The notes: generated from the sequence alone by a model not told the origin. A DNA stretch of 64,000 bases from an uncultured Bacteroidales bacterium (GCA_903913885.1 CAIWMX010000011.1:13512-77511), one strand, 5' to 3'; positions 43,791 through 59,956 are shown, counted from the stretch's first letter. Program-made: numbers and translations.

Positions 43791-43875
43791 CCTTTTAACG
43801 TTTTACCAGGATATGAAAAATAAAACCATAAACGCATAAACAGAACATTCCTAACCCCTGATTAAACCCAGTCTT

Positions 43876-45156: not shown

Positions 45157-45227
45157 GGAAACTGCTGATGAGCTATTGTCCTCCCCTGTAAACGGGGCAG
45201 GAATGGTATAATTTAACGGATACGTAA

Positions 45228-46604: not shown

Positions 46605-46616
46605 TATGAAAAAAAT

Positions 46617-46668
46617 CACCCTGTCACCTTGTTACCTTGTTACCTTGTCACCTTGTCACCTTGTCACC
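46617..46668. repeat. 8-nt tandem repeat YACCTTGT, about 6 copies, in the bcrA-bcrD spacer
   Basis: caccctgt caccttgt taccttgt taccttgt caccttgt caccttgt cacc. It ends 16 nt before the bcrD ATG. Confidence 0.92.
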
Positions 46669-46683
46669 ATTTAATAAACCATC

Positions 46684-47680: not shown

Positions 47681-49762
47681 ATGAACAATAGTCTCGACGC
47701 GTTATTCAAACCCAGGTCGGTTGCCCTGATCGGCGCTTCCCAGAAAGAGTTGTCGATCGGGAATGTGATCATTAAAAACCTGCTGCACTACCGGTTCAAT
47801 GGCCCGGTATACCCCATCAACCCGAAAGTTGAGGAGATCCGCGGACTGAAGTCCTATCCCTCCATCCTGGAGGTGCCCGGAGAGGTGGACCTTGCGCACA
47901 TCGTGATCCCGCCGCCCCTGGTACCCGAAGAGGTGGAAAACTGCGGAAAAAAGGGGGTGAAGGCCATCATCATCAACACGGCCGGTTTCAAGGAGATGGG
48001 CGACGAAGGCCAGGCGCTCGAGGATGACTTCCTAGCCAGGGCGCGGAAATACGGTATCCGCGTCGTGGGCCCCAACTGCCAGGGAATCATTAACTCCGAC
48101 CCGGCGATCAACGCTTACTGCAACTTCACCTTCACCTATCCTGAACCCGGACATATTTCGGTGGTCGCCCAGAGCGGCGGCGTGGGTGCCGTGATCATGC
48201 AGGCATTTTACGACATGGGTATCGGCCAGCGCATGTATGCCTCCAACGGTAACGGGTCGGATGTTTCCATTACCGAATTCATCAGCTATTACGGGGACGA
48301 TGATGAAACCCGTGCCATCGTGTTATATGCCGAAAGTCTGGAAAACCCCAAGGAGTTTATTGCTGCAGCCCGGAAAGTCACGGCCCGGAAACCCATCCTG
48401 GCCATCACGGCCGGCCGCACCGAGAAGGGCGCCGAAGCCTCGCGATCGCATATCGGGGGCATAGCCGGCAGCATCTCCATGGACCTCATATACCAGAAGG
48501 CCGGCATCCTCACCTTCACCAGCCAGGAAGACCTTTGTCATGCCGCGGTGGCCCTCTCCACCCAGCCGATCCCCAAAGGCAACCGGGTGGGTATCATTAC
48601 CAACACCGGCGGTCCTTCGGTGATCGCCATTGATGAATTGGATAGTTGCGGGCTGGTGATCCCGCCCCTTTCAAAAAAAGCAGAAAAAATCCTGAAAACC
48701 ACCATGCTTGCTTCGGCATCGGTCAGGAACCCGCTGGATGTGGTTGCCACGGCCGGCCCTGCCCACTTTAAAAGCGCGCTCGAAGTGATGATGAAAGAAC
48801 CGCTGTTCGACAGCATCTATATCAACTTTGTTACCCCGCCCTTTGTCGACTGCGAAAATGTGGCACGCGAAATTGCGGCGGCGGCAAAAGCCGGCAACAA
48901 GCCGATTGTGTGCAATTACATGACGGATAAACAAAAATGGGGTGCCACTTCTAAGATACTGAAGGATGGAGAAGTCCCCTGTTTTGATTTCGCGGAAACC
49001 GCAGCCCGGGCACTTCATTCCCTGGTAAGGTACAACAACATCAGAACGGCAAAAAGGGGAAGCATTAAAAAGTTCACCGGTGTAAGCCGCAATGCAGCCG
49101 GTAAAATCCTCCGCAATGCACGGGAAGAGGGAAGAGACGTGCTAACAGCATCAGAAGTTTACACCATCCTGGAGATTTACGGTATCCCGGTTGCCCCGTG
49201 GAAAATTGCCGGAGATGCGAACGGCGCTGTTGACGCGGCAAACGCGATCGGCTATCCCGTGGTGATCAAGGCGGATGCAGAGGCAATCATCCACAAAAGC
49301 GACGTGGGTGGGGTGGCCGTGAATATTAAAGATGCCACGGAAGCAGCCATGGCGGTAGAAACGATGAAAAAGAAACTGGGTGCGGAAATTAACTTCTTTG
49401 TACAAAAATTTCTTCCAAAAGGAAAAGAACTGTTTATAGGTGCCGTGGCCTCGTCTGGCGTCGGCCACATCATCGGGTTCGGCCTCGGCGGAATCTTCGT
49501 GGAAGTGCTGAAGGATGTGGTATACTGCATCACGCCCGTCAGCGATACCGAAGCCGCCGGCATGATCGGTTCCGTAAAGGCAGCAGCCCTGATCAACGGG
49601 TTCAGGGGCGAACCGGGGATCAACCGGGAAAAAACAGCGGAGATCATCCGGCGGATATCGATGCTGGTAACGGATTTCCCCGCGATCAGGGAACTTGATC
49701 TCAATCCGTTGTTTGCAATTGGCGATGAAATTTGCGTGGTGGATGCCAGGATCATTGTTTAA
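47681..49762 (+). CDS. ADP-forming acyl-CoA synthetase (fused alpha/beta; acetate--CoA ligase [ADP-forming] family)
   Basis: 693 aa. N-terminal CoA-binding/succinyl-CoA-synthetase-like part (FKPRSVALIGAS..GPVYPINPK..VPGEVDLA), a central ligase-CoA domain, and a C-terminal ATP-grasp (..YGIPVAPW..GYPVVIKA..). Confidence 0.85.
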   Translation: MNNSLDALFKPRSVALIGASQKELSIGNVIIKNLLHYRFNGPVYPINPKVEEIRGLKSYPSILEVPGEVDLAHIVIPPPLVPEEVENCGKKGVKAIIINTAGFKEMGDEGQALEDDFLARARKYGIRVVGPNCQGIINSDPAINAYCNFTFTYPEPGHISVVAQSGGVGAVIMQAFYDMGIGQRMYASNGNGSDVSITEFISYYGDDDETRAIVLYAESLENPKEFIAAARKVTARKPILAITAGRTEKGAEASRSHIGGIAGSISMDLIYQKAGILTFTSQEDLCHAAVALSTQPIPKGNRVGIITNTGGPSVIAIDELDSCGLVIPPLSKKAEKILKTTMLASASVRNPLDVVATAGPAHFKSALEVMMKEPLFDSIYINFVTPPFVDCENVAREIAAAAKAGNKPIVCNYMTDKQKWGATSKILKDGEVPCFDFAETAARALHSLVRYNNIRTAKRGSIKKFTGVSRNAAGKILRNAREEGRDVLTASEVYTILEIYGIPVAPWKIAGDANGAVDAANAIGYPVVIKADAEAIIHKSDVGGVAVNIKDATEAAMAVETMKKKLGAEINFFVQKFLPKGKELFIGAVASSGVGHIIGFGLGGIFVEVLKDVVYCITPVSDTEAAGMIGSVKAAALINGFRGEPGINREKTAEIIRRISMLVTDFPAIRELDLNPLFAIGDEICVVDARIIV

Positions 49763-49803
49763 CCCCTATTGGAAATATTGACCTAAAACCTATATTCAAA
49801 ACC

Positions 49804-50763
49804 ATGGAAGAGAAGAATTACAAAATCGGGATCATCGGCCTCGGGCCGATCGGTCAGACGCTTGCCGTGCATTTCAAACAAGCCGGGTGCGAGGTTGCCA
49901 TCACCGACCTGAACAGGGAGAAACTGAGCCTCATCAGGGAGGAAGGGATTGAGATCGTGAATCACCTTGAAAAGAAGTCATTCTTCAAACATGTCTATTT
50001 TTCGGTGGAGGAGATGCTGGAGCATGATTTTGACATTCTCATTTCTGCGGTCAAGGATTATCATGTGGATAAAATCGTCAAGGTGCTGAAGGACAACCTT
50101 ACCAAGGATGTCTTTCTCCTCAGCGCGCAGAACGGCATCGATATCCGGAAAAAATACCTCAGCCATTTCCCGAACTCAGCCATCCTCCGCATGGTGATCA
50201 ACTTTGCCGGAAACCTGCAGGCCCCGAACGTCACGGGAATAAATTTCTTCAACCCGCCTAACTATATCGGTTCCATGGACGATTCGCAGGAAGAGCTGGC
50301 AAAGTGGATCGCCGCCACCCTCACGGGCGTGGGCATGAAAACCGAGCAGGCCAACTCCTTCACCATCATCGACAAGATCTGGGAAAAGACGATCCTGAAC
50401 GCGGCGCTAAGCCCCCTTTGCGCGATATCGCGGCTCACCATGAAGGAGGCCATGGAAAATGCCGACACCCTGGAGATCATCGAACAGATCCTGTATGAAG
50501 CAGTGCAGGTAGCCAATGCCGAGGAGATCAAGCTGCCCGACAACTTCATCAAGCTGGCCATCCGCTATCTCAACAATGCCGGAAACCACATGCCCTCCCT
50601 GGCGGTCGACCTGATCAACAAGCGCGAGACGGAGATCGACTACATGAATGGAAAAATCGTCGATTACGGGAGAAAACATTATATCAAGACCCCGATCAAC
50701 CTCGTGCTGACCAATCTTGTGAATGCCATTTCATGCAAAAACGGCGTGGGAAAGTGCAAATAA
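49804..50763 (+). CDS. 2-dehydropantoate 2-reductase (ApbA/PanE) family oxidoreductase, substrate unknown
   Basis: The start is moved to MEEKNYKIGIIGLGPIGQ (ATG at 49804). The WEKTILNAALSPLCA and HMPSLAVDLINKRETEIDYMNGKIV blocks match the KPR family pattern (KxxxN...S..D...gR.TEid..nG). Confidence 0.78.
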   Translation: MEEKNYKIGIIGLGPIGQTLAVHFKQAGCEVAITDLNREKLSLIREEGIEIVNHLEKKSFFKHVYFSVEEMLEHDFDILISAVKDYHVDKIVKVLKDNLTKDVFLLSAQNGIDIRKKYLSHFPNSAILRMVINFAGNLQAPNVTGINFFNPPNYIGSMDDSQEELAKWIAATLTGVGMKTEQANSFTIIDKIWEKTILNAALSPLCAISRLTMKEAMENADTLEIIEQILYEAVQVANAEEIKLPDNFIKLAIRYLNNAGNHMPSLAVDLINKRETEIDYMNGKIVDYGRKHYIKTPINLVLTNLVNAISCKNGVGKCK

Positions 50764-50798: not shown

Positions 50799-51851
50799 AT
50801 GAATGAACCTATGTACTCCTGGCAGATGACGGCCCAGGATGCTGATTTTCAGCTTGTCGAAAGCCCGCTTCCCGAAGTCGGGCCACACGAGGCGCTGGTA
50901 AAAATCGCCGGGTGCGGCGTGTGCCATACCGACCTGAGTTTCTGGCATTACGGGGTGAAAACCAAGAAGGAACTCCCCCTGACCCTGGGCCACGAGATAA
51001 GCGGCACGGTGGTGGCCGGTCCGGAAGAATGGCTCGGTAAAAACGTGATCATCCCGGCCGTACTCCCCTGCGGCGAATGCGAATTGTGTAAAAAAGGCCG
51101 GAGCAACATGTGCCAGAAACAACTGATGCCGGGCAATGATTTTGACGGCGGGTTTGCCTCCCACATCAGGGTTCCTGTGCAATTTCTCTGCAATGTGCCT
51201 GACCAGTTGCTGGAAAAGTATCCCCTTGAAAAATTATCTGTGATCGCCGATGCCATCTCCACCCCATACCAGGTGATCATGAAATCGGAACTCGAAGCCG
51301 GCGATTTCGCCATCGTGATCGGGGTTGGCGGCGTGGGAATCTATGCCGCCCTGATCGCACGGATCATGGGAGCTAAGGTGCTGGCCCTGGACCTCGACGA
51401 CGAAAAGCTGGCAACCGCCAAAAATAACGGCATCGACGCGGTGCTGAACATCAGGGGCCTCGATCTCAAAACCATAAAGGAACAGGTGAGGGAGATTGCC
51501 AAGGGGCTGGGCGTTTCGCGTTACGGCTGGAAAATCTTTGAAGTGTCGGGAACAAAACCCGGGCAGGAGCTTGGATTCAACCTGATCACCTTCACCTCCA
51601 CCCTCTCCATCGTCGGGTTTACCCTCGACCGCACCGAAGTGAGGCTGAGCAACCTGATGGCCTTCGATGCCAAGCTGATCGGCACGTGGGGCTGCAAGCC
51701 GGAACTATACCCCGAAGTGGTCGACCTGATTGCCTCCGGTAAACTGAAGATCGATGATTTCGTGGAGACCTTCCCGCTTTCGTCGATCAACGAGGTTTTC
51801 CGGAATACGTTGAACCATGTTTACAAGAAAAGATCGGTGCTGGTGCCGTGA
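50799..51851 (+). CDS. had: Zn-dependent MDR alcohol dehydrogenase; 6-hydroxycyclohex-1-ene-1-carbonyl-CoA dehydrogenase-like
   Basis: 350 aa. GCGVCHTDL and GHEISG Zn motifs and a GVGGVG NAD motif. Placement next to oah and dch homologs. The R. palustris alternative, BadH, would be a short-chain SDR, which this is not. Confidence 0.68.
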   Translation: MNEPMYSWQMTAQDADFQLVESPLPEVGPHEALVKIAGCGVCHTDLSFWHYGVKTKKELPLTLGHEISGTVVAGPEEWLGKNVIIPAVLPCGECELCKKGRSNMCQKQLMPGNDFDGGFASHIRVPVQFLCNVPDQLLEKYPLEKLSVIADAISTPYQVIMKSELEAGDFAIVIGVGGVGIYAALIARIMGAKVLALDLDDEKLATAKNNGIDAVLNIRGLDLKTIKEQVREIAKGLGVSRYGWKIFEVSGTKPGQELGFNLITFTSTLSIVGFTLDRTEVRLSNLMAFDAKLIGTWGCKPELYPEVVDLIASGKLKIDDFVETFPLSSINEVFRNTLNHVYKKRSVLVP

Positions 51852-51976
51852 CCTCACCCATGGCCCCCGAAACACCTCACCCCCCGGCCCCCAGTGGTTG
51901 AAATACCTCACCCCCCGGCCCCCAGTGGTTGAAATACCTCACCCCCCGGCCCCCTCTCCTCGAAGGAGAGGGGGAG
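51851..51976 (+). repeat. 31-bp tandem repeat (ACCTCACCCCCCGGCCCCCAGTGGTTGAAAT) x2 plus partial copies, ending in the hairpin CCCCCTCTCC-TCGAA-GGAGAGGGGG
   Basis: Units at 51874 and 51905, a degenerate unit at 51851, and a last unit running into the 10-bp perfect-stem hairpin at 51950-51974. Located in the had/oah spacer. Confidence 0.92.
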
Positions 51977-52020
51977 GGCGAAGATATAAACTGAATGTTT
52001 AAAAATTAAAATAAAATGTC

Positions 52021-53103
52021 ATGCTAGCAAGTCATAATCTTACTGAAAACACCTACAGCGAGATCCTGGTTGAAAAACGGCCCTGCAGGGATTTGAGCGG
52101 GAATCCCGTGGAAGGACTTTTCAACGCGTGGATCATCCTGAATAATCCCCAGCAGTATAACTCCTATACCACCGGCGCCGTGAAGGAGGTGATTCTCGCC
52201 ATGCGGGAGGCCTCCAACGACCGGAGCGTGGTGGCGGTCGTGTTCACCGGGGTGGGCGACAAAGCCTTTTGCACCGGGGGCAACACGAAGGAATATGCCG
52301 AGTATTATGCCGGCAATCCGCAGGAATACAAGCAGTACATGCGCCTGTTCAACGACATGGTCTCCTCCATCCTGATGAACGACAAGCCGGTTGTTTGCCG
52401 CGTAAACGGCATGCGCATCGGCGGAGGCCAGGAGATCGGGATGGCCTGCGATTTCTCCATCGCCCAGGATTTCGCGCGGTTCGGGCAGGCAGGCCCGAAA
52501 CATGGCAGCGCCCCCGACGGAGGTTCAACAGATTTCCTGCCCCTGTTCGTGGGCATCGAAAACGCCATGTTCTCCTGCACGGTCTGCGATCCGTGGTCGG
52601 CATACGAAGCCATTCGCGGCGGACTGGTCACCGAAGTGGTGCCGGCGCTTAGAGTAAATGGGGAATTCATCCCAAACCCGCTGGTTTACACCGATCAATG
52701 GGTCAACAGCAAAGGCCAGATCGTTTACGGAAAAATGAAAACCGGGGAAGATCTGGCCAAAGGCAAGGAACTGATGAAATCGGGAGAAATGGATCTCGCC
52801 ATGCTGGACCAGGCCGTTGAACGCTTTTGCACCAAACTCCTCTACCTGATGCCGAACTGTTTGAGCAAAACGCTGAATTCGCTCAGAAAACACAAGCTCG
52901 AACATTGGGACAGGAACAAGGAGAGCAACCGCGACTGGCTGGCCCTGAACATGATGACCGAAGGAAAGGCCGGTTTCAGGGCATTCAACGATGGTCCGAA
53001 GGACAAACGGGAGGTTGACTTTATCAAACTGCGGCAGCTGCTTGCCGAAGGCCACGAGTGGAACGACGAGCTGATCAGGGCGGTTTCGCCGCAGTGTCAG
53101 TAG
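52021..53103 (+). CDS. oah: 6-oxocyclohex-1-ene-1-carbonyl-CoA hydrolase-like (ring-opening crotonase; Oah/BamA type)
   Basis: 360 aa. Crotonase core (VVFTGVGDKAFCTGGN..CRVNGMRIGGGQEIGMACDF) plus the extra approximately 100 aa that distinguishes Oah/BamA (about 360-380 aa) from ordinary crotonases or BadI (about 260 aa). Confidence 0.72.
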   Translation: MLASHNLTENTYSEILVEKRPCRDLSGNPVEGLFNAWIILNNPQQYNSYTTGAVKEVILAMREASNDRSVVAVVFTGVGDKAFCTGGNTKEYAEYYAGNPQEYKQYMRLFNDMVSSILMNDKPVVCRVNGMRIGGGQEIGMACDFSIAQDFARFGQAGPKHGSAPDGGSTDFLPLFVGIENAMFSCTVCDPWSAYEAIRGGLVTEVVPALRVNGEFIPNPLVYTDQWVNSKGQIVYGKMKTGEDLAKGKELMKSGEMDLAMLDQAVERFCTKLLYLMPNCLSKTLNSLRKHKLEHWDRNKESNRDWLALNMMTEGKAGFRAFNDGPKDKREVDFIKLRQLLAEGHEWNDELIRAVSPQCQ

Positions 53104-53199: not shown

Positions 53200-53256
53200 A
53201 GAAACATACCTCGAAAAAGTGTGGTTTTTTTAAATATAAATGAAGATACTGAAAAA

Positions 53257-54030
53257 ATGCAAAAGATCAAAGTTGAGTATTTATTTGAGGAGACTGTTGC
53301 CAGGGTGATCCTCGACGACGGGAAGGCCAATATCCTCGATGCTGTTATGATGGGCGATATTACCAATTTACTGGTTTCGCTGAAGGATCGGCCGGATATC
53401 AAGCTGATCACCTTTGAAGGTGCCGGGAATAATTTCTCCTACGGCGCGAGTGTGGCCGAGCACACCAAAGACAAAGCAGCCGCGATGCTCGACGGGTTTC
53501 ATAAAATGTTCTTCGCCCTCATCGACCTGCACACCCCGACCCTGGCCAAGTTGTCGGGACAGTGCCTTGGCGGCGGGTTCGAGCTGCCGCTGGCATGCAA
53601 CTTCATTTTTGCCGACAAGAGTGCAAAAATCGGGCAGCCGGAGATCATTCTGGGCGTTTTCGCACCTCCTGCTTCGGTGATGCTGCCCCTGAAAATCGGC
53701 AATGCCAAAGCGGAAGAGTTGCTGATTACCGGGCGGGTCATTTCAGCCGATGAGGCTAAATCGCTGGGTCTGGTGAACGAAGTATATGACGACAAAACAG
53801 CCCTGGAAGCCGCCACGGATGAATGGATCCGGAAAAACATCCTGGGAAAGAGCGCTTCCGCCCTGCGGTTTGCCACCCGGGCAGCCCGCGCCTCGTTCGA
53901 CTTCTTTATGCTGAAACATCTTCCCGAATTTGCCGGTATGTACGTGAACGAAATGATGGAAACCCATGATGCCAACGAAGGGATCAACGCCTTTATCGAA
54001 AAGAGGAAGCCGGTGTGGAAGAATTGCTGA
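53257..54030 (+). CDS. dch: cyclohexa-1,5-diene-1-carbonyl-CoA hydratase-like crotonase
   Basis: The start is moved to MQKIKVEY (ATG at 53257), giving 257 aa. Crotonase fold with FSYGASVAEH in place of the usual FxAGADI, which I recall as a dienoyl-CoA hydratase trait. Operon context supports the call. Confidence 0.62.
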   Translation: MQKIKVEYLFEETVARVILDDGKANILDAVMMGDITNLLVSLKDRPDIKLITFEGAGNNFSYGASVAEHTKDKAAAMLDGFHKMFFALIDLHTPTLAKLSGQCLGGGFELPLACNFIFADKSAKIGQPEIILGVFAPPASVMLPLKIGNAKAEELLITGRVISADEAKSLGLVNEVYDDKTALEAATDEWIRKNILGKSASALRFATRAARASFDFFMLKHLPEFAGMYVNEMMETHDANEGINAFIEKRKPVWKNC

Positions 54031-54104: not shown

Positions 54105-54130
54105 AACCGGACACGTAAATATTAAAACCT

Positions 54131-55384
54131 ATGAGTGAAAAAACAACACAGGACAAGAGCGAGCTGGTGAAACTGCAATCGGCAGGCGAACTGCGCAAAA
54201 CCATGGATGGTTATTTTTCGCGGCTCAGGGAGGCTGCCGAAACCGGCAGCCGGAAAATCGCCTGGTGCACCAGCGTGGGGCCGGCAGAGCTGCTGTATTC
54301 GATGGGCTTCGAGGTTTTCTTCCCCGAGAACCACGGCGCCATGCTGGGCGCCGGTAAAAATGCCGACAAGTACATTCCCACGGCGGTGGCCCACGGCTAC
54401 TCCCCCGACATCTGTTCCTATCTCACCAGCGACATCGGCGCCTTTCTTCAGAATGAGACGCCCCTGCAGAAAAGCGGGTTCAAATCGGTGCCGACGCCCG
54501 ATATCCTGGTTTACAACACGAACCAGTGCCGGGAGGTCGAAGACTGGTTCAGCTTTTATGGCCGGCATTTCAAAGTGCCCGTGGTGGGCATTCACACCCC
54601 GTTGTGCATCACCGATCTTGGCCCCGAAATCATCAAAACCGTGGCCGAACAGTATCACCGCATCATTCCCGAACTTGAAAAGGTGGCAGGGGTGAAATTC
54701 GACATCGACCGGTTCAGGGAAACAGTCGGGTTGTCGCACGATGGCTGCGTTCTCTGGAAAGAGGTGCTGCAAAAAGCCAAAAACATCCCGGCACCCATCA
54801 ACTTCTTCGACTCCGCCATACACATGGGACCCATCGTGGTGATGCGCGGAACGCAGTATGCCAATGACTATTACAAAATCCTGCTGGCCGAACTGCAGGA
54901 GCGAATCGAACAGCATATCAGCGCCGTTCCCTCGGAGAGGTTCAGGCTTTACTGGGAAGGAATGCCGCTCTGGTACCGCCTGAGCAACCTGGCAAAACTG
55001 TTCGCCAAACTCGACACCTGCATTGTGGCGTCAACCTATTGCAACAGCTGGGTATTCGACGACCTTGACCCGGCGGACCCGTTTGAATCGTCGGCACTGG
55101 CTTACAGCAAACTCTTCATCGTCAGGTCAGATACGGTAAAGGAAAATGTGCTCGACCAGCTGATGCAGGAGTTCAGCGTGAACGGGATCATCTACCACGA
55201 GTCGAAGACCTGTGCCCGCAATTCCAACAACCGCTTCGGGCTGCAAAACCGGCTCCTCAAAAGGAATGGGATCCCTTACCTTGAAATAAACGGCGATCTT
55301 AACGATCCGCGCTGCTACAGCGAGGAGCAAAGCATCATCGCCATCGAGACATTCATCGATCAACTCTCCGGCCAGATAAAATGA
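54131..55384 (+). CDS. single-subunit 2-hydroxyacyl-CoA dehydratase-family protein (candidate double-cubane-cluster-type reductase)
   Basis: 417 aa, same superfamily as BcrB/C and HgdA/B (KIAWCTSVGPAELLYSMGFEVFFPENHGA, PDICSYL..). It has nine Cys, only one such subunit is present, and a short activase gene follows. Confidence 0.6.
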   Translation: MSEKTTQDKSELVKLQSAGELRKTMDGYFSRLREAAETGSRKIAWCTSVGPAELLYSMGFEVFFPENHGAMLGAGKNADKYIPTAVAHGYSPDICSYLTSDIGAFLQNETPLQKSGFKSVPTPDILVYNTNQCREVEDWFSFYGRHFKVPVVGIHTPLCITDLGPEIIKTVAEQYHRIIPELEKVAGVKFDIDRFRETVGLSHDGCVLWKEVLQKAKNIPAPINFFDSAIHMGPIVVMRGTQYANDYYKILLAELQERIEQHISAVPSERFRLYWEGMPLWYRLSNLAKLFAKLDTCIVASTYCNSWVFDDLDPADPFESSALAYSKLFIVRSDTVKENVLDQLMQEFSVNGIIYHESKTCARNSNNRFGLQNRLLKRNGIPYLEINGDLNDPRCYSEEQSIIAIETFIDQLSGQIK

Positions 55385-55412
55385 CCGCTGATCCTAACGC
55401 AAAAAACTGAAC

Positions 55413-56162
55413 ATGTACCGTCTGGGCATCGATCTCGGGTCATCTTTCACCAAAGGCGTACTGGTTGATGAAAACAACCGGCTGGCCGATGTTTTCTGTG
55501 TCAGGTCGGGGTATAACTTCAACAACGCCGCCGAAAAAATCATCGCGCATTTCACGGAGAAACACGAGGTTGCTTTTCCTGTTTACACCTGCGGATACGG
55601 GCGGGAACAGATTAAAGTACCGTTCATCTCCAACTCGGAACTGATCGCGCTTTCGAAGGCGGTCTTCGAAATTTACAAGCGATCGTGTTCGATCATCGAC
55701 ATCGGCGGGCAGGACACGAAATTTATCCAGGTCAATTCGCAGGGCCAGGTTGAAAAATTCAAAATGAACCGCAAGTGCGCCGCCGGCACGGGCTCCTTCC
55801 TCGAAGAGATCGCCTTCAGGCTGGATGTGACCCCGGCTGAATTCACGAAATTTGCCGCGGAGGCTACCGGGGAAGTGAAGATCAACAGTTTCTGCACTGT
55901 ATTCGCCATTTCGGAGATCATCGGCATGATCAAGAACGGTGCATCGCTGCCGAACATCATCCTGGGAATCTATAACTCCATCATACTGAGATCATCGGAA
56001 CTTTCGCTGGTCGAAGGTTACGTGGTGATCACCGGAGGGTTGCCCGCCATGCACCCGACCATCGTCAGCCTGTTCAAAAAAAAATACCCGGAATCCGACA
56101 GCCCCGAACATTCGCAGTTCCTGGCTGCCTACGGGTGCGTGCTTTTAAACACATCAAAATAA
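55413..56162 (+). CDS. acyl-CoA dehydratase activase / BadF-BadG-BcrA-BcrD-type ATPase (HgdC-like, short form)
   Basis: 249 aa. GIDLGSSFTKGVLVD, DIGGQDTKFIQV, NRKCAAGTGSFLE and ITGGLP. HgdC-like size with no insertion. Confidence 0.85.
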   Translation: MYRLGIDLGSSFTKGVLVDENNRLADVFCVRSGYNFNNAAEKIIAHFTEKHEVAFPVYTCGYGREQIKVPFISNSELIALSKAVFEIYKRSCSIIDIGGQDTKFIQVNSQGQVEKFKMNRKCAAGTGSFLEEIAFRLDVTPAEFTKFAAEATGEVKINSFCTVFAISEIIGMIKNGASLPNIILGIYNSIILRSSELSLVEGYVVITGGLPAMHPTIVSLFKKKYPESDSPEHSQFLAAYGCVLLNTSK

Positions 56163-56190: not shown

Positions 56191-57459
56191 ATGGATAACA
56201 AAGCTAAAGAAGTCGTGATCGTAAGTGCTGCCCGAACGCCGATCGGCAGGCACGGAGGCTACTACAATGATCTTCCGGCCGAAGACCTCGCCGTATTGGC
56301 CGTGTATGAAGCCATCCTGCGGTCGGGAATCGACCTGGCCACCATCCGGATCGACCACGTCGTTGCCGGGATGATCTACATCGATTCGATGAACCAGCAG
56401 ATCTACCTCCCGAGAAACGTGGCGATGCGGGTGGCGGATAAGTTCAACGACACGGATAATCTTCGTGTTGCGCCCGGCAAGACAACCCTGCGCATCTGCG
56501 GCACCGGTTTCCAGGTGCTTGCCGACGGGTTTGATCAGCTGATGTCGGATACCGAAAACGCCGGCTGCGTGCTCGCCTTTGCCACGGAGAACATGTCGCA
56601 GACCAACCTTATCCACCAGGGACGGAGAAAAAAGGAAAGCGTTTGGGATTTCGAAGAGGGGCGGCTCCGCGATTACCTGATGGAGGGGTTCAACCACAAC
56701 CTCTTCCAAACCCTGATGCCGAAAACGGCAGAACTGTATGGCTCCCAGACCGGCATCACCCGCAGGGAGTGCGACGAGTTTTCTTACCTCAGCCATATTC
56801 GCGCCATCAACGCGCAATCGAAACAGTGGAACCGGTTTGCCAACCCCGGGGAAAACAACTACCTCCGGGGCATCTTCACAGTCGACACCGTTGACAAGGC
56901 AGGCAATGCCCTCAATGTGTGGCGGGATGAAGGTACAAAATACGATATCAGCCTCGATGAACTCGCCAACCTGCGGCCGATGCTGAAACCCAACGGGCTT
57001 GTCACGCCGGGCACCGCCAGCCAGATCAGTGATGGCGCAGCCGCTGCCGTGCTGATGGAGCGTTCGTTTGCCGATGAAAACAACATCCCCTGCCTTGCGA
57101 AGATCAAGGGATACCAGTTTTCGACCGTCCCCCCCGAAATCATGGGCCAGGGACCGGTGCCGGCCATCATCGACCTGCTGGCAAAACTGGATATGAAAAA
57201 GGAGGATGTCGACCTTTTCGAGGTCAACGAGGCCTTTGCCGCCCAGTATCTGGGCGTGGAGAAGGAACTCCGCCTCCCGCGCGACCGTACCAACGTGAAC
57301 GGGGGCGCCATCGCCATGGGCCACAATATCGCCGCCACCGGCCTGCGCATCACCACCGACCTAGTGTACGAGTTAAAACGGCGGGGACTGAAAACCGGCA
57401 TCGCATCGGCCTGCATCGGCGGCGGCCAGGGCGGGGCCATCTGCGTGGAAATTGTTTAA
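56191..57459 (+). CDS. acetyl-CoA C-acyltransferase (thiolase)
   Basis: 422 aa. Active-site Cys context RICGTGFQ, and C-terminal NVNGGAIAMGHNIAATG and ACIGGGQGGA. Confidence 0.9.
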   Translation: MDNKAKEVVIVSAARTPIGRHGGYYNDLPAEDLAVLAVYEAILRSGIDLATIRIDHVVAGMIYIDSMNQQIYLPRNVAMRVADKFNDTDNLRVAPGKTTLRICGTGFQVLADGFDQLMSDTENAGCVLAFATENMSQTNLIHQGRRKKESVWDFEEGRLRDYLMEGFNHNLFQTLMPKTAELYGSQTGITRRECDEFSYLSHIRAINAQSKQWNRFANPGENNYLRGIFTVDTVDKAGNALNVWRDEGTKYDISLDELANLRPMLKPNGLVTPGTASQISDGAAAAVLMERSFADENNIPCLAKIKGYQFSTVPPEIMGQGPVPAIIDLLAKLDMKKEDVDLFEVNEAFAAQYLGVEKELRLPRDRTNVNGGAIAMGHNIAATGLRITTDLVYELKRRGLKTGIASACIGGGQGGAICVEIV

Positions 57460-57493: not shown

Positions 57494-59956
57494 ATGGGAA
57501 CTGTTTTTTCATTCGGGAACAAACTACTCCAGAAGGAAGTCGCGAAACTCAACAGCATTAAAAAAATTGCCGTTATCGGTTCGGGAACCATGGGTATCGG
57601 CATCGGCATCGACATCCTCAACAAAACAGGGTTCGATGTCATCTTCATTGACGTGGCCGACGCCGCGCTCGAAAGAGCCAGGAGAGATATTACCGCGTAT
57701 TTTTCAGGTCTCGCCGAAGGCGGAAGGATCCTTGACGAACAGGCTTTGGAATATATTTCGCGGGTAACCTATTCAAAAGATTTCACCCTCCTCGGGCAGA
57801 CGGAGATCATCTGGGAGGCAGCCACCGAACGGATCGACGTGAAAAAGGTGATTTTCGGGAACATAGAAAAATATGCCGATCCGGGAAAGCTTGTTTTTAT
57901 CTTTTCCAACACCTCCTCGCACACCACGGCCGAACTGGCGGTGCTGTTCAACGACCGGCTCCTCATGGATAAATTCCTGACCGGCCATGGTTATTTCCCG
58001 TTCCATGCAAACCGCCTCTTCGACGTCATGAAAGGGAAATACGCTTCGGAAGAGACCTTTACCGCCGGGGTGGCCTTCGCCGAACAGGTGCTGGAGAAGA
58101 AGGTTATCGCGCTGCGGAACGACCATCACGGTTATGTGGCCGATCCCATTTTCGAAGGTATGGCGGCCATCATCCAGTGGGACATCCAAACCGGGCAGGA
58201 CCTGGTGGAACTCCCGCAGGTTTTTGAATTGCTGACGGCCAACCCGTTCCAGGTACTCGACCGGACAGGCCACATGCCCTATACCGAATGCGCCAGGCAC
58301 CTGGGGAGGGCCCTTCCCGGCAATGACCGGCTGAAAAGTGTTTACAACCAGGATGGCCGGCATTACCCGCAGTGGATCGAAGATCTCGAGAAATCAGGAA
58401 AGACCGGACTCGCCTCGAAGGAAAAACAGGGCTTCTTCAGGTGGGCGGGTGCGGCAAACCGTGAAAAGATCACCGGGGTGTATGATCCCGGGAGCAAGGA
58501 ATATGTTGCCATCGCAGAGATAAGCCGCCTCGATTACTGGTCGCTGTCTGAAGCCGCTGCGCTGGACCACCGCGAATCGGCCATCAAAAGCATCGACGGG
58601 CTGATCCTTATTGCCGGATCGGACGACAAAGGAGGCCTGACCTTCCGAAGATACGTCATCCCCATCATGCTGTATGCCCTCGATCTGATCCAGGACAATT
58701 ACGCCACCGCGGCCGACATCGATTCCTCCTCTAAGGTGGGCCTTCGCTTCAAATATGGTTTATGCGAGATCATCGACAAATTTATCGGTCATTTCAGCAT
58801 CGACGGATTTATCGGGCTGGTAAAAAAATCGGCGCTCGAAAATCCCGGAAGGGACGAACTTTTTGATGTTGACGGAAACAGCGGGCCCCGGAAAGGTTGC
58901 CCCTCCCTGCTATATACGATGAAGAAAAACGGATGGAAAGGTCTGCTCGGTTACGGGCGCATCTATGGCACCCCCGTAAGCCAGCGCAACTTCGCAACCG
59001 GGGCGATGGATCTGTATTACAATGATCTGCGGTTCATTTATCCCTCCAAAAAAGACCGGGTTGCCACCATTATTTTCGACAACCCGCTCCGCGGGAATGT
59101 GTGGAACCGGAACACCCTCGACCAGCTTGACCACGCCATCGGGATCTCGACCGCCCTGTTTGAGCAGGGAGAACTGGGTGCGCTGCTCTTTACCGCTTCG
59201 GGCAAGGGGATGCGCATGCTCGGAGCTGATGCCCGGCAGTTCAACAAGGGCTGGTTTGATGCCCGCACGGGATACCAGTTCCTCGGGGAGGAGGATGCCT
59301 CCTGGTTCACCAAAGCCGGGATGCGGCTGTTCCGTTTCATCCAGGAGATGCCCGTTTGGACCATTGGCGTGTTTGGCGAAAAATGGGGCGGCGGCGCTGA
59401 ATTCACTTATTTCCTGAACCAGCGGTTCGACCTGGTGATGCATGGGGTTGAGTTTGATTCCCTTAAAAGGAAAAACGTTTTCAAAACCAAAAAGAATTAC
59501 AACCAGCCAGAAATTGAATATGGCATCCTGGGCGGCTTTGGCGCCGTGCAGGAACTGGTCCGCCTGGGTTTCGGCGAGTCGCTCATCGACGAACTTTTCA
59601 TCCAGGGCCTCACGGCAACACGGGCTCACGAACTCGGACTCTCAAACAGCGTAAGCGATAATGAATACGAACTGCTTGAAAAAGCGTTCGAACTGGCCCG
59701 GCTGAAACAAAAGTACGCGGTACCTTATGCCGTGGCCCTCTATAACCTGCAGAAAAAGAATGCGTTCGCAGAAGGGTGCAACGATGACCGGCTTACCAGG
59801 GAAACCGGCGAAACCTTCAATCCCGCGAAAAATCCCTATATTTCCACCGCGTTGTTGCGCCTGCTGAACATCGGCGGAAATAACCCGCCGTTGAACCTCG
59901 AAGTGCGGGGCAATTTGCCGGGTTGGGAGAACAACTATGACAAATTATACGAATAA
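57494..59956 (+). CDS. bifunctional 3-hydroxyacyl-CoA dehydrogenase (N-terminal) / enoyl-CoA hydratase-like (C-terminal) protein
   Basis: 820 aa. N-terminal Rossmann IAVIGSGTMGIGIG plus the HACD fold, and a C-terminal approximately 300 aa crotonase-like domain (VATIIFDNPLRGNVWN..LFTASGKGMRMLGADA..). The domain order is reversed relative to FadB. Confidence 0.82.
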   Translation: MGTVFSFGNKLLQKEVAKLNSIKKIAVIGSGTMGIGIGIDILNKTGFDVIFIDVADAALERARRDITAYFSGLAEGGRILDEQALEYISRVTYSKDFTLLGQTEIIWEAATERIDVKKVIFGNIEKYADPGKLVFIFSNTSSHTTAELAVLFNDRLLMDKFLTGHGYFPFHANRLFDVMKGKYASEETFTAGVAFAEQVLEKKVIALRNDHHGYVADPIFEGMAAIIQWDIQTGQDLVELPQVFELLTANPFQVLDRTGHMPYTECARHLGRALPGNDRLKSVYNQDGRHYPQWIEDLEKSGKTGLASKEKQGFFRWAGAANREKITGVYDPGSKEYVAIAEISRLDYWSLSEAAALDHRESAIKSIDGLILIAGSDDKGGLTFRRYVIPIMLYALDLIQDNYATAADIDSSSKVGLRFKYGLCEIIDKFIGHFSIDGFIGLVKKSALENPGRDELFDVDGNSGPRKGCPSLLYTMKKNGWKGLLGYGRIYGTPVSQRNFATGAMDLYYNDLRFIYPSKKDRVATIIFDNPLRGNVWNRNTLDQLDHAIGISTALFEQGELGALLFTASGKGMRMLGADARQFNKGWFDARTGYQFLGEEDASWFTKAGMRLFRFIQEMPVWTIGVFGEKWGGGAEFTYFLNQRFDLVMHGVEFDSLKRKNVFKTKKNYNQPEIEYGILGGFGAVQELVRLGFGESLIDELFIQGLTATRAHELGLSNSVSDNEYELLEKAFELARLKQKYAVPYAVALYNLQKKNAFAEGCNDDRLTRETGETFNPAKNPYISTALLRLLNIGGNNPPLNLEVRGNLPGWENNYDKLYE

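What the first reader, a model, noticed from the sequence alone, without database searches (positions are those of the whole stretch)
54131..56162. A second ATP-driven low-potential module inside the operon: a single dehydratase-family subunit plus a short HgdC-like activase (double-cubane-cluster-protein-like pair)
What the sequence shows:
- Only one 417-aa HgdA/B-BcrB/C-superfamily subunit is present. It has nine Cys, including the contexts CTSVG, ICSY, NQCRE, TYCNS and KTCARN.
- A 249-aa activase without the BcrA-type insertion follows immediately.

Established knowledge:
- 2-Hydroxyacyl-CoA dehydratases and BCRs need two different catalytic subunits.
- The homodimeric relatives that pair with their own ATPase are the double-cubane [8Fe-9S] cluster proteins. 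Their physiological substrates are unknown.

Inference: its position between dch and the thiolase suggests a dedicated, uncharacterised ATP-coupled reduction, dehydration or dehydroxylation of an aromatic or alicyclic CoA ester.
Basis: partly seen in the sequence, partly recalled or inferred. Interest (0 to 1): 0.62.

Follow-up and report, generated by a model that had tools for sequence, protein, structure and literature searches.

The report
Partner-less HadB-like radical enzyme plus activator
Inside a freshwater Bacteroidota operon for anaerobic benzoate breakdown sits a gene pair for an ATP-primed iron-sulfur radical enzyme with only the catalytic one of its usual two subunits; it belongs to a widespread, unstudied clade tied to the benzoyl-CoA pathway and is probably a new form of 2-hydroxyacyl-CoA dehydratase, not a double-cubane protein.

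Summary
A 417-aa HGD-D protein (54131-55384) is followed 28 nt later by an intact 249-aa HgdC/HadI-type activase (55413-56162). The genome's only other HGD-D genes are bcrC and bcrB.

The double-cubane reading does not hold. Sequence, profile, fold and tree all place the protein among catalytic alpha-type subunits. HadB is the closest solved relative, then MbdO/BzdO, with DCCP far behind. The 7-Cys DCCP motif is absent.

The protein belongs to its own well-supported clade. Four cysteines are invariant (C46, C95, C133, C361) and C304 is nearly so. C95, C133 and C361 are the HadB/BzdO [4Fe-4S] ligands. C46 and C304 sit where DCCP keeps two distal-cubane ligands.

The clade is truly partner-less: 75 of 83 loci, and four whole genomes, hold no second HGD-D gene. 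It travels with an activase, an ADP-forming acyl-CoA synthetase and a 2-hydroxyacid dehydrogenase (ApbA/PanE type, sometimes fused, or GlcD/GlcF type). It co-occurs strongly with the ring-cleaving hydrolase Oah/BamA.

Best reading: a beta-less, probably homodimeric (R)-2-hydroxyacyl-CoA dehydratase. It may feed aryl-lactates through cinnamoyl-CoA into benzoyl-CoA. The substrate is unproven.

The parts
54131..55384 (+). P0001: solitary alpha-type (HadB/BcrB-like) HGD-D subunit, 417 aa
   Evidence: PF06050 205 bits. Best PDB hit HadB alpha 3o3m_A, 168 bits. AF2 model pLDDT 90.1, pTM 0.90. Foldseek HadB TM 0.88/0.91. Sits in a 46-row clade with support 100.
54413..54415 (+). Cys95 codon (TGT), first canonical [4Fe-4S] ligand; Cys133 (54527-54529) and Cys361 (55211-55213) are the other two
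   Evidence: Aligned with the Cys ligands of HadB and BzdO (BzdO Cys95/128/380, PMC11971306). Invariant in 57 of 57 family members. Codons checked.
54266..54268 (+). Cys46 codon (TGC), clade-specific conserved Cys at the end of strand beta-1; its partner Cys304 is at 55040-55042
   Evidence: C46 in 57 of 57 and C304 in 55 of 57 members. HadB has Ser and Pro at these positions and BcrB has Thr and Thr. DCCP has a Cys in the C304 column and a Cys one residue from C46. Both lie at strand ends facing the inter-domain cleft in the model.
55413..56162 (+). P0002: HgdC/HadI-type activase (archerase), 249 aa; cluster-bridging Cys122 (55776-55778) and Cys161 (55893-55895)
   Evidence: TIGR00241 148 bits, above the cut-off of 125. 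Best PDB hits HadI 4eht 108 bits and HgdC 1hux 104 bits. The CAAGTG and CTVFA(E/I)SE Cys motifs and the DxGS / DIGGQD / GG ATP motifs align.
49732..50763 (+). ApbA/PanE-type NAD(P)-dependent 2-oxoacid reductase-like gene, functionally linked (inferred)
   Evidence: Pfam ApbA + ApbA_C. Relatives of P0001 occur as natural ApbA-HGD-D fusions (P0123, 63% identical). An ApbA gene lies directly upstream of the P0001 homologue in L016, L017 and L065; in the Desulfobacterales loci the order is ApbA-activase-HGDX, and ApbA lies within 10 kb in 22 of 43 loci. Closest solved relatives are 8wl1, 2ew2 and 3wfi (76-84 bits), against E. coli PanE at 28 bits.
47681..49762 (+). ADP-forming acyl-CoA synthetase (ACD), functionally linked (inferred): CoA activation of the acid
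   Evidence: Pfam CoA_binding, Succ_CoA_lig and ATP-grasp_5. Within 10 kb of the P0001 homologue in 27 of 43 loci, often directly after the activase. Best solved relatives are the ADP-forming 4-hydroxybutyrate- and 3-hydroxypropionate-CoA ligases.
53221..54030 (+). dch-like enoyl-CoA hydratase directly upstream of P0001
   Evidence: TIGR03189 221 bits, below the cut-off of 292.5. The adjacency to the P0001 homologue survives operon rearrangement in Ignavibacteria (L004, L005).
56191..57459 (+). thiolase directly downstream; possible user of the product after hydration and oxidation (inferred)
   Evidence: Thiolase_N/C. Conserved order HGDX-activase-thiolase-HACD in Bacteroidota loci.
57494..59956 (+). 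820-aa 3-hydroxyacyl-CoA dehydrogenase / crotonase-like fusion (inferred beta-oxidation partner)
   Evidence: 3HCDH_N and weak C-terminal enoyl-CoA hydratase matches. FadB/FadJ-like genes sit directly upstream of the homologue in PVC-group loci.
42627..47517 (+). bcrC, bcrB, bcrA, bcrD: complete class I benzoyl-CoA reductase. Context only, not the partner of P0001.
   Evidence: Two HGD-D and two BcrAD_BadFG proteins. BcrC matches MbdN, HadC, BzdN and DCCP. BcrB groups with MbdO.
50799..53103 (+). had (50799-51851) and oah/bamA (52021-53103): ring-processing genes of the benzoyl-CoA pathway (context)
   Evidence: TIGR03201 444 bits and TIGR03200 587 bits, both above their cut-offs.

Best explanation
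P0001 and P0002 form a two-component, ATP-primed ketyl-radical enzyme of the 2-hydroxyacyl-CoA dehydratase kind that has no beta subunit.

Proposed mechanism (all steps inferred from sequence, model and context):
1. P0002, presumably a homodimer, bridges one [4Fe-4S] cluster through Cys122 and Cys161.
2. It is reduced by a ferredoxin or flavodoxin, binds ATP, docks on P0001 (presumably an alpha2 homodimer) and injects one low-potential electron.
3. P0001 holds a [4Fe-4S] cluster on Cys95, Cys133 and Cys361. The fourth iron is free to bind the thioester or hydroxyl of an (R)-2-hydroxyacyl-CoA.
4. Electron transfer gives a ketyl radical, the alpha-hydroxyl leaves, the beta-proton is removed (Glu66 is the conserved candidate base), and the electron returns to the cluster. 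ATP is therefore needed only for priming.
5. Cys46 and Cys304, both conserved in this clade, are inferred to line the acyl pocket.

Proposed pathway (inferred):
- The ApbA-type reductase (49732-50763) makes the (R)-2-hydroxy acid from a 2-oxo acid.
- The ADP-forming synthetase (47681-49762) makes the CoA ester.
- The hydratase, dehydrogenase and thiolase genes around the pair shorten the resulting enoyl-CoA.
- In this operon the most coherent substrate is (4-hydroxy)phenyllactyl-CoA. The route would be arylpyruvate, aryl-lactate, aryl-lactyl-CoA, cinnamoyl- or coumaroyl-CoA, then (4-hydroxy)benzoyl-CoA plus acetyl-CoA, which enter the reductases encoded in the same operon.

My odds: about 0.55 for the enzyme class and about 0.3 for the aryl-lactyl substrate.
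For: Shown:
- P0001 is nearest to HadB alpha by sequence (168 bits; family profiles 236-311 bits), by fold (TM 0.88/0.91, E 1e-27) and by NCBIfam (HadB model 211 bits, best of four hits).
- The three HadB/BzdO cluster Cys and Glu66 are invariant (ligands as given in PMC11971306).
- P0002 keeps both cluster Cys and the ATP motifs of HgdC/HadI.
- No beta partner: 3 HGD-D genes in this genome, two of them BCR subunits. 75 of 83 loci have one HGD-D ORF. Genomes G002 (complete chromosome), G004, G006 and G015 have this one only.
- An activase lies within 1.5 kb in 54 of 59 loci.

Link to 2-hydroxy acids, from two unrelated dehydrogenase types next to the pair:
- ApbA/PanE type, within 10 kb in 22 of 43 loci and naturally fused to the HGD-D domain in P0123, P0128 and P0145.
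- GlcD-type FAD enzyme fused or paired with a GlcF-like Fe-S/CCG unit, in about 15 loci.

CoA activation:
- ACD lies within 10 kb in 27 of 43 loci. Its closest solved relatives are ADP-forming hydroxyacid-CoA ligases.

Use of an enoyl-CoA product:
- FadB/FadJ-like, thiolase and ECH genes are adjacent.

Aromatic link:
- Oah/BamA is over its cut-off in 12 of 16 carrier genomes.
- In 401 genomes of the phylum, 5 of 5 carriers have Oah against 2 of 396 non-carriers (Fisher p = 2.5e-10).
- Desulfobacterales loci add PaaK-like ligase, 2-oxoacid:ferredoxin oxidoreductase subunits (not typed further), ACT and TRAP genes.
- 4-hydroxybenzoyl-CoA-reductase-like Mo enzymes are nearby here and in several loci.
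- A 2026 paper draws exactly this phenylpyruvate-to-benzoyl-CoA route with 'a yet unassigned dehydratase' (PMC13416013).
Against: - No member of the clade has been studied. Neither the substrate nor the oligomeric state is known.
- Every characterised dehydratase of this type is an alpha-beta heterodimer, so a beta-less one is unprecedented.
- Two extra conserved Cys in the predicted active-site cleft have no role in the classical mechanism and could mean different chemistry.
- The association with Oah would also fit a function on a ring CoA ester.
- Context is heterogeneous. PVC-group carriers G003 and G012 lack Oah. Some loci have neither ApbA nor ACD.
- ADP-forming synthetases often run in the ATP-forming direction.
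- In this window ApbA and ACD are 3.4-4.4 kb from the pair, separated by had, oah and the dch-like gene.
- I had no coordinates of the model, so the position of Cys46 and Cys304 relative to the cluster is inferred from alignment and secondary structure only.
Confidence: 0.55

Rival explanations
1. ATP-dependent reductase or dehydroxylase acting on an aromatic or alicyclic CoA ester. This would be a minimal, two-gene relative of class I benzoyl-CoA reductase. Stoichiometric ATP-driven electrons, with protons or H atoms delivered by the Cys46/Cys304 pair, would reduce or dehydroxylate for example a substituted benzoyl-CoA or a dienoyl-CoA.
For: - Very strong co-occurrence with Oah/BamA.
- The gene sits between the dch-like gene and the thiolase, and is often next to had, oah, dch and Mo-hydroxylase genes even where no class I BCR is nearby.
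- Fold similarity to MbdO and BzdO is almost as high as to HadB (TM 0.84-0.87).
- MbdO also has a Cys at the C46 position.
- Two conserved extra Cys in the cleft are unexplained by dehydratase chemistry.
Against: - Sequence is clearly closer to HadB than to BCR subunits: 168 against 115 and 84 bits, and profiles 311 against 197 and 163 bits.
- It has the PENH motif like HadB (PENQ), not the PEIN of BcrB and MbdO.
- Known BCRs relay electrons through a double-cubane partner subunit (PMC11971306), which is absent here.
- The carrier genomes I checked already have a BCR. This one, G001 and others have class I. G004, G006 and G015 have BamB orthologues 78-80% identical to the Geobacter copy.
- This reading does not explain the two kinds of 2-hydroxyacid dehydrogenase and the natural ApbA fusions.
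- Some carriers lack Oah.
Confidence: 0.17
2. The same enzyme chemistry runs in the hydration direction as part of the lower benzoyl-CoA pathway. The route would be glutaconyl-CoA (or another enoyl-CoA), (R)-2-hydroxyacyl-CoA, 2-hydroxy acid plus ATP (through the ADP-forming synthetase), then 2-oxo acid (through ApbA or GlcD). This would, for example, regenerate 2-oxoglutarate for ferredoxin reduction.
For: - ADP-forming synthetases commonly conserve ATP from acyl-CoA (established knowledge).
- 2-oxoacid:ferredoxin oxidoreductase genes lie directly upstream of the pair in L036 and L049.
- The pair co-occurs with the benzoyl-CoA pathway, which produces glutaryl- and glutaconyl-CoA.
- GlcD-family enzymes include D-2-hydroxyglutarate dehydrogenases.
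Against: - The operon's acyl-CoA dehydrogenase best matches acryloyl-CoA reductase (265 bits) and glutaryl-CoA dehydrogenase (264 bits) models, both below cut-off. An unchecked first-stage note reads it as the decarboxylating type, which would not release glutaconyl-CoA.
- The nearest solved ACD relatives work as ligases.
- PaaK, ACT, TRAP and 2-oxoacid:ferredoxin oxidoreductase contexts point to aryl acids.
- There is no direct evidence for the direction of the reaction.
Confidence: 0.1
3. One reading: a double-cubane [8Fe-9S] cluster protein with its reductase (DCCP/DCCP-R-like), reducing an unknown small or CoA-bound substrate.
For: - Single subunit plus its own ATPase, which is the DCCP gene architecture.
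- Five conserved Cys, of which C304 aligns with a DCCP distal-cubane ligand and C46 lies one residue from another.
- DCCP is found at fold level (TM 0.75-0.77).
Against: - The 7-Cys motif CX19CX18-19CX29CX166-170CX32-34CX32C (PMC7317905) is absent. The Cys spacing here is 46, 95, 133, 304, 361.
- The third distal ligand (DCCP 'NCAC') has no counterpart.
- NF040772 scores 48 bits against a cut-off of 350.
- DCCP groups with the beta-type subunits (BcrC, BzdN, HadC), on the other side of the root from P0001.
- HadB, MbdO and BzdO all rank above DCCP by sequence and fold.
Confidence: 0.06
4. P0001 is an alternative catalytic subunit that pairs with BcrC of the same operon to give a second substrate specificity to the benzoyl-CoA reductase.
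For: bcrC lies in the same operon. This genome's only possible beta-type partner is BcrC.
Against: - P0001 has its own activase, and that adjacency is conserved in 54 of 59 loci.
- Four carrier genomes have no other HGD-D gene at all.
- 75 of 83 loci have none nearby.
Confidence: 0.03

Closest known systems
(R)-2-hydroxyisocaproyl-CoA dehydratase HadBC with activator HadI (Clostridioides difficile; PDB 3o3m/3o3n, 4eht)
   Same: - P0001 is most like the catalytic alpha subunit HadB: 168 bits, profile 236-311 bits, TM 0.88/0.91.
- It has the same three Cys ligands, the conserved Glu and a PEN(H/Q) motif.
- P0002 is most like HadI and HgdC, with both bridging Cys and the ATP motifs.
   Different: - There is no HadC-type beta subunit gene, here or in the clade.
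- Two extra conserved Cys (C46, C304) replace the Ser and Pro of HadB.
- It forms a separate clade with support 100.
- It is linked to a CoA ligase (ACD) rather than a CoA transferase, and to an ApbA- or GlcD-type rather than an LdhA-type dehydrogenase.
Class I benzoyl-CoA reductase catalytic subunits BzdO, MbdO and BcrB, with double-cubane partner BzdN/MbdN/BcrC and ATPase BzdPQ/BcrAD (PDB 8s02, 9g87, 9gai)
   Same: - Same fold (TM 0.84-0.87).
- Same three Cys and Glu.
- Same operon and the same pathway association.
- MbdO shares the Cys at position 46.
   Different: - Lower sequence similarity (84-115 bits).
- No double-cubane partner.
- The ATPase is a single short gene (homodimer type), not the BcrA/BcrD pair.
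- BzdO His131 is Val136 here. BcrB and MbdO have Phe at this position.
- The BCR clade is separate in the tree.
Double-cubane cluster protein DCCP with DCCP-R (Carboxydothermus hydrogenoformans, PDB 6eno, 7yyl); E. coli YjiM/YjiL
   Same: - The gene architecture is one HGD-D protein plus one activase gene, so a homodimer:homodimer complex is plausible.
- C304 aligns with one DCCP distal-cubane Cys, and C46 lies one residue from another.
   Different: - The 7-Cys motif is absent and the third distal ligand is missing.
- The NF040772 score is far below its cut-off.
- DCCP belongs with the beta-type subunits, whereas P0001 belongs with the alpha-type subunits (PMC7317905).
Phenyllactate dehydratase FldBC with initiator FldI and CoA transferase FldA (Clostridium sporogenes; Dickert et al. 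2002, cited in PMC13416013)
   Same: It catalyses the reaction I propose as most coherent for this operon: (R)-phenyllactyl-CoA to cinnamoyl-CoA by an ATP-primed [4Fe-4S] radical enzyme.
   Different: - FldBC is heterodimeric and uses a CoA transferase.
- No FldB sequence was available to compare, so this resemblance is functional conjecture and was not tested.

Membership tests
2-hydroxyacyl-CoA dehydratase, catalytic alpha subunit (HadB/HgdA/FldB type) | HGD-D fold, closest to alpha subunits | tested here: met
   PF06050 205 bits. HadB is the top hit by phmmer, by profile and by Foldseek.
2-hydroxyacyl-CoA dehydratase, catalytic alpha subunit (HadB/HgdA/FldB type) | Three Cys ligating a [4Fe-4S] cluster with an open fourth iron, plus a conserved active-site Glu | tested here: met
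   C95, C133, C361 and E66 align with those of HadB and BzdO and are invariant in 57 sequences. Whether C46 or C304 occupies the fourth iron could not be tested.
2-hydroxyacyl-CoA dehydratase, catalytic alpha subunit (HadB/HgdA/FldB type) | Obligate heterodimer with a homologous beta subunit encoded alongside | tested here: not met
   No second HGD-D ORF in 75 of 83 loci. It is the only HGD-D gene in four genomes. In this genome the other two are bcrB and bcrC.
2-hydroxyacyl-CoA dehydratase, catalytic alpha subunit (HadB/HgdA/FldB type) | Dedicated HgdC/HadI-type ATP-dependent activator | tested here: met
   P0002 scores 148 bits on TIGR00241 (cut-off 125). Cys122 and Cys161 align with the HgdC bridging Cys. 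An activase is adjacent in 54 of 59 loci.
2-hydroxyacyl-CoA dehydratase, catalytic alpha subunit (HadB/HgdA/FldB type) | Equivalog-level similarity to a characterised member | tested here: not met
   NF052455 HadB scores 211 bits against a cut-off of 750. The protein sits in a separate clade from HadB.
2-hydroxyacyl-CoA dehydratase, catalytic alpha subunit (HadB/HgdA/FldB type) | Dehydration of an (R)-2-hydroxyacyl-CoA with catalytic, not stoichiometric, ATP | not testable with these tools
   Needs anaerobic enzymology.
Double-cubane cluster protein (DCCP, NF040772) | 7-Cys motif CX19CX18-19CX29CX166-170CX32-34CX32C with six [8Fe-9S] ligands | tested here: not met
   The conserved Cys are at 46, 95, 133, 304 and 361. 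There is no counterpart of the DCCP 'NCAC' ligand or of Cys94 (motif from PMC7317905).
Double-cubane cluster protein (DCCP, NF040772) | Family-model score and phylogenetic placement with the cluster II/IV (beta-type) sequences | tested here: not met
   48 bits against a cut-off of 350. DCCP groups with BcrC-type proteins as the outgroup, support 99. BcrC, not P0001, finds DCCP by phmmer.
Double-cubane cluster protein (DCCP, NF040772) | Homodimer served by its own homodimeric ATPase | tested here: inconclusive
   The gene content fits, with one HGD-D gene and one activase gene. The oligomeric state was not testable.
Class I benzoyl-CoA reductase beta subunit (BcrB/BzdO/MbdO) | Equivalog score, and pairing with a double-cubane subunit and a BcrA/BcrD-type heterodimeric ATPase | tested here: not met
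   TIGR02260 scores 161 bits against 487, and TIGR03191 scores 87 bits against 449. There is no dedicated partner. The ATPase is a single short gene. The true BcrB of the window falls in another clade.

The most novel reading that the evidence does not exclude
The five-Cys clade is a self-sufficient, homodimeric radical enzyme that keeps part of the ancestral double-cubane site. Besides the catalytic [4Fe-4S], Cys46 and Cys304 sit at or beside two of the three distal-cubane ligand positions of DCCP and BzdN. In this reading they hold a second, non-canonical metal site, or they act as a redox-active thiol pair delivering H atoms. The pair would then be a reductase rather than a dehydratase. It would be a third, two-gene type of ATP-driven aryl- or enoyl-CoA reductase or dehydroxylase, belonging to the BamA/Oah pathway in both class I and class II BCR organisms.
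Probability: 0.12. Interest if true: 0.85.

Novelty: new variant of a known kind. Interest (0 to 1): 0.62.

Why it matters
All studied members of this radical-enzyme superfamily that act on CoA esters need two different core subunits. The only known single-subunit members are the double-cubane proteins, whose physiological substrates are unknown.

This clade would be a third architecture: an alpha-only enzyme with its own activator. It is not rare. At least 80 species-level genomes across more than ten phyla and two archaeal lineages carry a copy 52-87% identical, and 595 pattern-confirmed relatives were found in one scan.

The clade is tied statistically and physically to the anaerobic benzoyl-CoA pathway, yet it is absent from the textbook gene sets of that pathway.

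If the aryl-lactate reading is right, it supplies the 'unassigned dehydratase' of a redox-neutral route from phenylalanine, tyrosine or phenyllactate to benzoyl-CoA. Strict anaerobes could use that route in place of the difficult alpha-oxidation of phenylacetyl-CoA.

If the reductase reading is right, it is a new class of low-potential aryl-CoA enzyme.

Either way the clade gives a compact, two-gene, expressible system for studying ATP-driven electron injection without a relay subunit.

Tried and rejected
1. Hidden partner subunit. I searched the whole genome with PF06050. I ran phmmer with BcrC, BcrB and P0001 against all ORFs of 83 loci. I counted HGD-D genes in 16 carrier genomes. No dedicated partner was found.

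2. 'The pair is the benzoyl-CoA reductase of genomes that have oah but no class I BCR.' Rejected for the genomes checked. G004, G006 and G015 carry BamB orthologues 78-80% identical to the Geobacter copy next to bamA. The single AOR of G002 did not appear among these BamB-like matches, so it was not resolved.

3. DCCP membership. Rejected by motif, family model, profile, fold rank and tree. The HMMER profile alignment to DCCP put the DCCP Cys opposite C297 rather than C304. I trust the 144-sequence MAFFT alignment and the strand register more, but this equivalence stays an inference.

4. His131 of BzdO as a BCR hallmark. Dropped, because MbdO and BcrB have Phe there.

5. Transcript evidence. 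No RNA run holds the gene. Only freshwater and lake DNA metagenomes do.

6. Literature. Seven full-text searches found no characterised member. The only mentions were a 'singular' FldB-like gene and an 'unassigned dehydratase' in PMC13416013.

7. Substrate assignment from pocket residues.

8. First attempt at the family alignment failed on a stop codon in one reference. It was repeated with corrected coordinates.

Full report
**1. Observation**

The + strand carries an uninterrupted operon:

| Gene | Coordinates |
|---|---|
| bcrC | 42627-43790 |
| bcrB | 43876-45156 |
| bcrA (458 aa, with insertion) | 45228-46604 |
| bcrD | 46684-47517 |
| ADP-forming acyl-CoA synthetase (ACD) | 47681-49762 |
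| ApbA/PanE-like reductase | 49732-50763 |
| had | 50799-51851 |
| oah | 52021-53103 |
| dch-like hydratase | 53221-54030 |
| P0001 (417 aa) | 54131-55384 |
| P0002 (249 aa) | 55413-56162 |
| thiolase | 56191-57459 |
| 820-aa 3-hydroxyacyl-CoA dehydrogenase / crotonase-like fusion | 57494-59956 |
| acyl-CoA dehydrogenase | 59985-61163 |
| fused [2Fe-2S]/molybdenum hydroxylase, open to the window end | 61197 onward |

- The dch-like hydratase scores 221 bits on TIGR03189, below the cut-off of 292.5.
- P0001 is a single HGD-D domain protein with nine Cys.
- P0002 is an acyl-CoA dehydratase activase above its NCBIfam cut-off.
- No + strand promoter-like or terminator-like site lies between 53000 and 57600.
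- The genome (5.16 Mb, 99% complete) has three HGD-D genes in all: bcrC, bcrB and P0001.

The one qualification is that two further family members lie upstream in the same operon, as subunits of a complete class I benzoyl-CoA reductase.

**2. Which branch of the superfamily**

- By phmmer against PDB sequences, P0001 finds HadB (168 bits), the alpha subunit of 2-hydroxyisocaproyl-CoA dehydratase. It then finds MbdO (115 bits) and BzdO (84 bits), and no DCCP.
- Family profiles give HadB 311 and 236 bits, MbdO 197 and 165, BzdO 163 and 122, and DCCP 54 and 36.
- The window's BcrC behaves the opposite way. It finds MbdN, HadC, BzdN and DCCP. This matches the published split into catalytic (cluster III) and supporting or DCCP (clusters II and IV) sequences (PMC7317905).
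- The NCBIfam double_cubane model scores 48 bits against a cut-off of 350.
- An AlphaFold2 model built on 57 family sequences is confident, with pLDDT 90.1 and pTM 0.90.
- Foldseek against the PDB ranks HadB first (TM 0.88/0.91, E 1e-27), then MbdO and BzdO (0.84-0.87), then DCCP (0.75-0.77, E about 1e-15), then the beta-type subunits (0.67-0.74).
- In a 144-sequence tree rooted on BcrC-type proteins plus DCCP (support 99), P0001 lies in a 46-row clade with support 100. That clade is separate from the HadB clade (100) and from the BcrB/MbdO clade (100).

P0001 is therefore an alpha-type, catalytic-type subunit in a clade of its own. It is not a DCCP.

**3. Cysteines**

- Among 57 members spanning 52-87% identity, C46, C95, C133 and C361 are invariant, and C304 is present in 55 of 57. 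The other four Cys vary.
- C95, C133 and C361 align with the three [4Fe-4S] ligands of HadB and BzdO (BzdO Cys95, Cys128, Cys380; PMC11971306). Glu66 aligns with BzdO Glu65.
- The DCCP 7-Cys motif (PMC7317905) is absent.
- C304 falls in the same alignment column as the DCCP ligand in 'VVVGEETC'. C46 lies one residue from the DCCP Cys in 'FATFCVYVP'. The third distal-cubane ligand ('NCAC') has no counterpart.
- In the model all five conserved Cys sit at the C-terminal ends of strands or the N-termini of helices, facing the cleft between the two Rossmann-like domains.
- HadB has Ser and Pro at positions 46 and 304, and the window's BcrB has Thr and Thr. MbdO shares only the first Cys.
- In BzdO the place of the distal cubane is taken by the benzoyl group (PMC11971306). 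The likeliest reading, an inference, is that C46 and C304 line the acyl pocket. A remnant second metal site cannot be excluded.

**4. The activase**

- P0002 aligns end to end with HadI (108 bits) and HgdC (104 bits).
- Its Cys122 (KCAAGTG) and Cys161 (FCTVFAISE) align with the two cluster-bridging Cys. These are HgdC Cys127 and Cys166 by my recollection of the 1hux paper, and the numbering fits the alignment.
- The ATP-binding motifs are intact.
- It is a single short gene, the homodimeric HgdC type, unlike the bcrA/bcrD pair upstream.

**5. Is it really partner-less?**

- A scan of one genome per GTDB species, using a clade-specific pattern, gave 595 confirmed relatives. The best 80 (52-86% identical) come from Bacteroidota, Ignavibacteria, Desulfobacterales, Syntrophales, Geobacter, Aminicenantes, Acidobacteriota, Planctomycetota, Verrucomicrobia, Kiritimatiellia, Chloroflexi, Elusimicrobia, Zixibacteria, Eubacteriales, Thermoplasmata and Promethearchaeota.
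- In 75 of 83 loci, P0001's homologue is the only HGD-D ORF within about 10 kb. The other eight hold a BcrB/BcrC pair.
- Among 16 carrier genomes, four have no other HGD-D gene at all. They are G002 (a complete 4.1-Mb chromosome), G004, G006 and G015.
- The protein must therefore work without a beta-type subunit.
- An activase lies within 1.5 kb in 54 of 59 loci that have enough flank.

**6. What travels with it**

- ACD lies within 10 kb in 27 of 43 loci, and an ApbA/PanE-like gene in 22 of 43. Typical gene orders are ApbA-activase-HGDX-ACD (Desulfobacterales) and HGDX-activase-ACD.
- Relatives occur as natural ApbA-HGD-D fusions. P0123 (728 aa, 63% identical) keeps all the Cys. P0128 and P0145 are fused too but lack the three cluster Cys.
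- In about 15 other loci the neighbour is instead a GlcD-type FAD 2-hydroxyacid oxidoreductase, fused or paired with a GlcF-like Fe-S/CCG unit.
- Two unrelated kinds of 2-hydroxyacid dehydrogenase next to the same enzyme is the strongest contextual pointer to a 2-hydroxy acid-derived substrate.
- The ApbA-like protein is closer to 8wl1, 2ew2 and 3wfi (76-84 bits) than to E. coli PanE (28 bits). By my recollection 3wfi is a D-mandelate dehydrogenase.
- The nearest solved relatives of the ACD are ADP-forming 4-hydroxybutyrate- and 3-hydroxypropionate-CoA ligases. That is a precedent for hydroxy-acid activation by this enzyme type.
- FadB/FadJ-like, thiolase and hydratase genes are frequent direct neighbours. 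This fits an enoyl-CoA product.
- Desulfobacterales loci add PaaK-like phenylacetate-CoA ligase (552 bits), 2-oxoacid:ferredoxin oxidoreductase subunits (not typed further), ACT and TRAP transporter genes.

**7. Link to the benzoyl-CoA pathway**

- had, oah or both lie within 10 kb in 20 of 43 loci.
- Oah/BamA is over its curated cut-off in 12 of 16 carrier genomes.
- In an even sample of 401 genomes of the window's phylum, 5 carry the protein and 7 carry Oah. All 5 carriers have Oah, and they belong to five different families. Fisher p is 2.5e-10, not corrected for phylogeny.
- Carriers use either class of benzoyl-CoA reductase. This genome, the Ignavibacteria loci and G001 have class I. G004, G006 and G015 have BamB orthologues 78-80% identical to the Geobacter copy beside bamA, so they have class II.
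- The pair is therefore not simply the dearomatising reductase of these organisms. It is an unrecognised accessory of the pathway.
- Carriers G003, G009 and G012 (Planctomycetota and Verrucomicrobia) lack an Oah match. The function is therefore not strictly bound to ring cleavage.

**8. Explanation and rivals**

The best-supported reading (0.55) is a beta-less, probably homodimeric, ATP-primed (R)-2-hydroxyacyl-CoA dehydratase. The ApbA-type reductase and the ACD would supply its substrate, and beta-oxidation enzymes would follow it.

For this operon the most coherent substrate (about 0.3) is (4-hydroxy)phenyllactyl-CoA:
- The net reaction would be arylpyruvate + ATP + 2 CoA to aroyl-CoA + acetyl-CoA + ADP + Pi.
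- One NAD(P)H is consumed and one is regained.
- The route bypasses the alpha-oxidation of phenylacetyl-CoA.
- It explains the co-occurrence with the benzoyl-CoA pathway and with 4-hydroxybenzoyl-CoA-reductase-like Mo enzymes.
- A 2026 paper drew this route for a sulfate reducer with 'a yet unassigned dehydratase'. It noted a 'singular' FldB-like gene (PMC13416013).

All mechanistic steps are inferred. None is shown.

Rivals:

| Rival reading | Odds |
|---|---|
| ATP-coupled reductase or dehydroxylase of a ring CoA ester | 0.17 |
| The same chemistry in the hydration direction in the lower pathway | 0.10 |
| A true double-cubane protein | 0.06 |
| An alternative partner of BcrC | 0.03 |

**9. 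Novelty**

- No characterised member turned up in seven full-text searches.
- Earlier notes of this scan on sister loci in other genomes reach the same reading. They are AI notes on the same family, not independent evidence. One of them gave me the GlcD/GlcF lead, which I verified.
- I rate this a new variant of a known kind: known fold, cofactor logic and activator, but a new subunit architecture, a new conserved Cys pair and a new pathway association.

Noticed in passing
proteins P0128 and P0145 (representative library), compared with window 54131-55384: Some natural ApbA-HGD-D fusion proteins have lost all three cluster-ligating Cys (Ser, Gly and Ser in P0128). They must be cluster-free derivatives with a different or purely structural role.
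   Followed up: partly
window 54031-54130: The dch|P0001 spacer holds two CCTC(A/T)CCCCCTAACCCCCT units. They are followed by a perfect hairpin, CCCCTCTCCCC-AGG-GAGAGGGGG, with no T-run. It looks like a REP-like intergenic element rather than a terminator, and another finding of the scan also flags it.
   Followed up: no
window 53221-54030: The 'dch' gene scores below the dienoyl-CoA hydratase equivalog cut-off (221 bits against 292.5). It stays glued to the P0001 homologue when the operon is rearranged in Ignavibacteria. It might hydrate the product of P0001 rather than, or as well as, the dienoyl-CoA.
   Followed up: partly
window 47681-49762: The operon has no AMP-forming benzoate-CoA ligase. 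Its only CoA-activating enzyme is an ADP-forming synthetase, whose closest solved relatives are archaeal hydroxyacid-CoA ligases.
   Followed up: partly
L004 9620-9964 and L005 3223-3567: In Ignavibacteria a small 23S rRNA intervening-sequence protein gene (PF05635) is inserted between the dch-like gene and the P0001 homologue.
   Followed up: no
loci L018-L086, compared with window 55413-56162: Activases next to the 52-59% identical HGD-D homologues are only about 35% identical to P0002. Those of the Bacteroidota/Ignavibacteria group are 58-84% identical. The activase either evolves much faster or was replaced in one lineage.
   Followed up: no
window 61197-64000; loci L024, L028, L034, L064: A fused [2Fe-2S]/Mo-hydroxylase runs off the window end. 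It resembles 4-hydroxybenzoyl-CoA reductase. Similar Mo enzymes with an HcrB-like FAD subunit sit beside the HGD-D/activase/ACD module in Aminicenantes and other phyla.
   Followed up: partly
window 53900-56300: Near-identical DNA occurs in freshwater and lake-water metagenomes from several studies (share of words 0.63-1.00). No RNA run holds it.
   Followed up: partly
L052 5326-10028 (Acidobacteriota): A divergent four-gene set lies head to head with the P0001 homologue. It has two HGD-D genes 26-28% identical to BcrC and BcrB, and two BcrD-like ATPase genes. It may be a separate heterodimeric radical enzyme.
   Followed up: no
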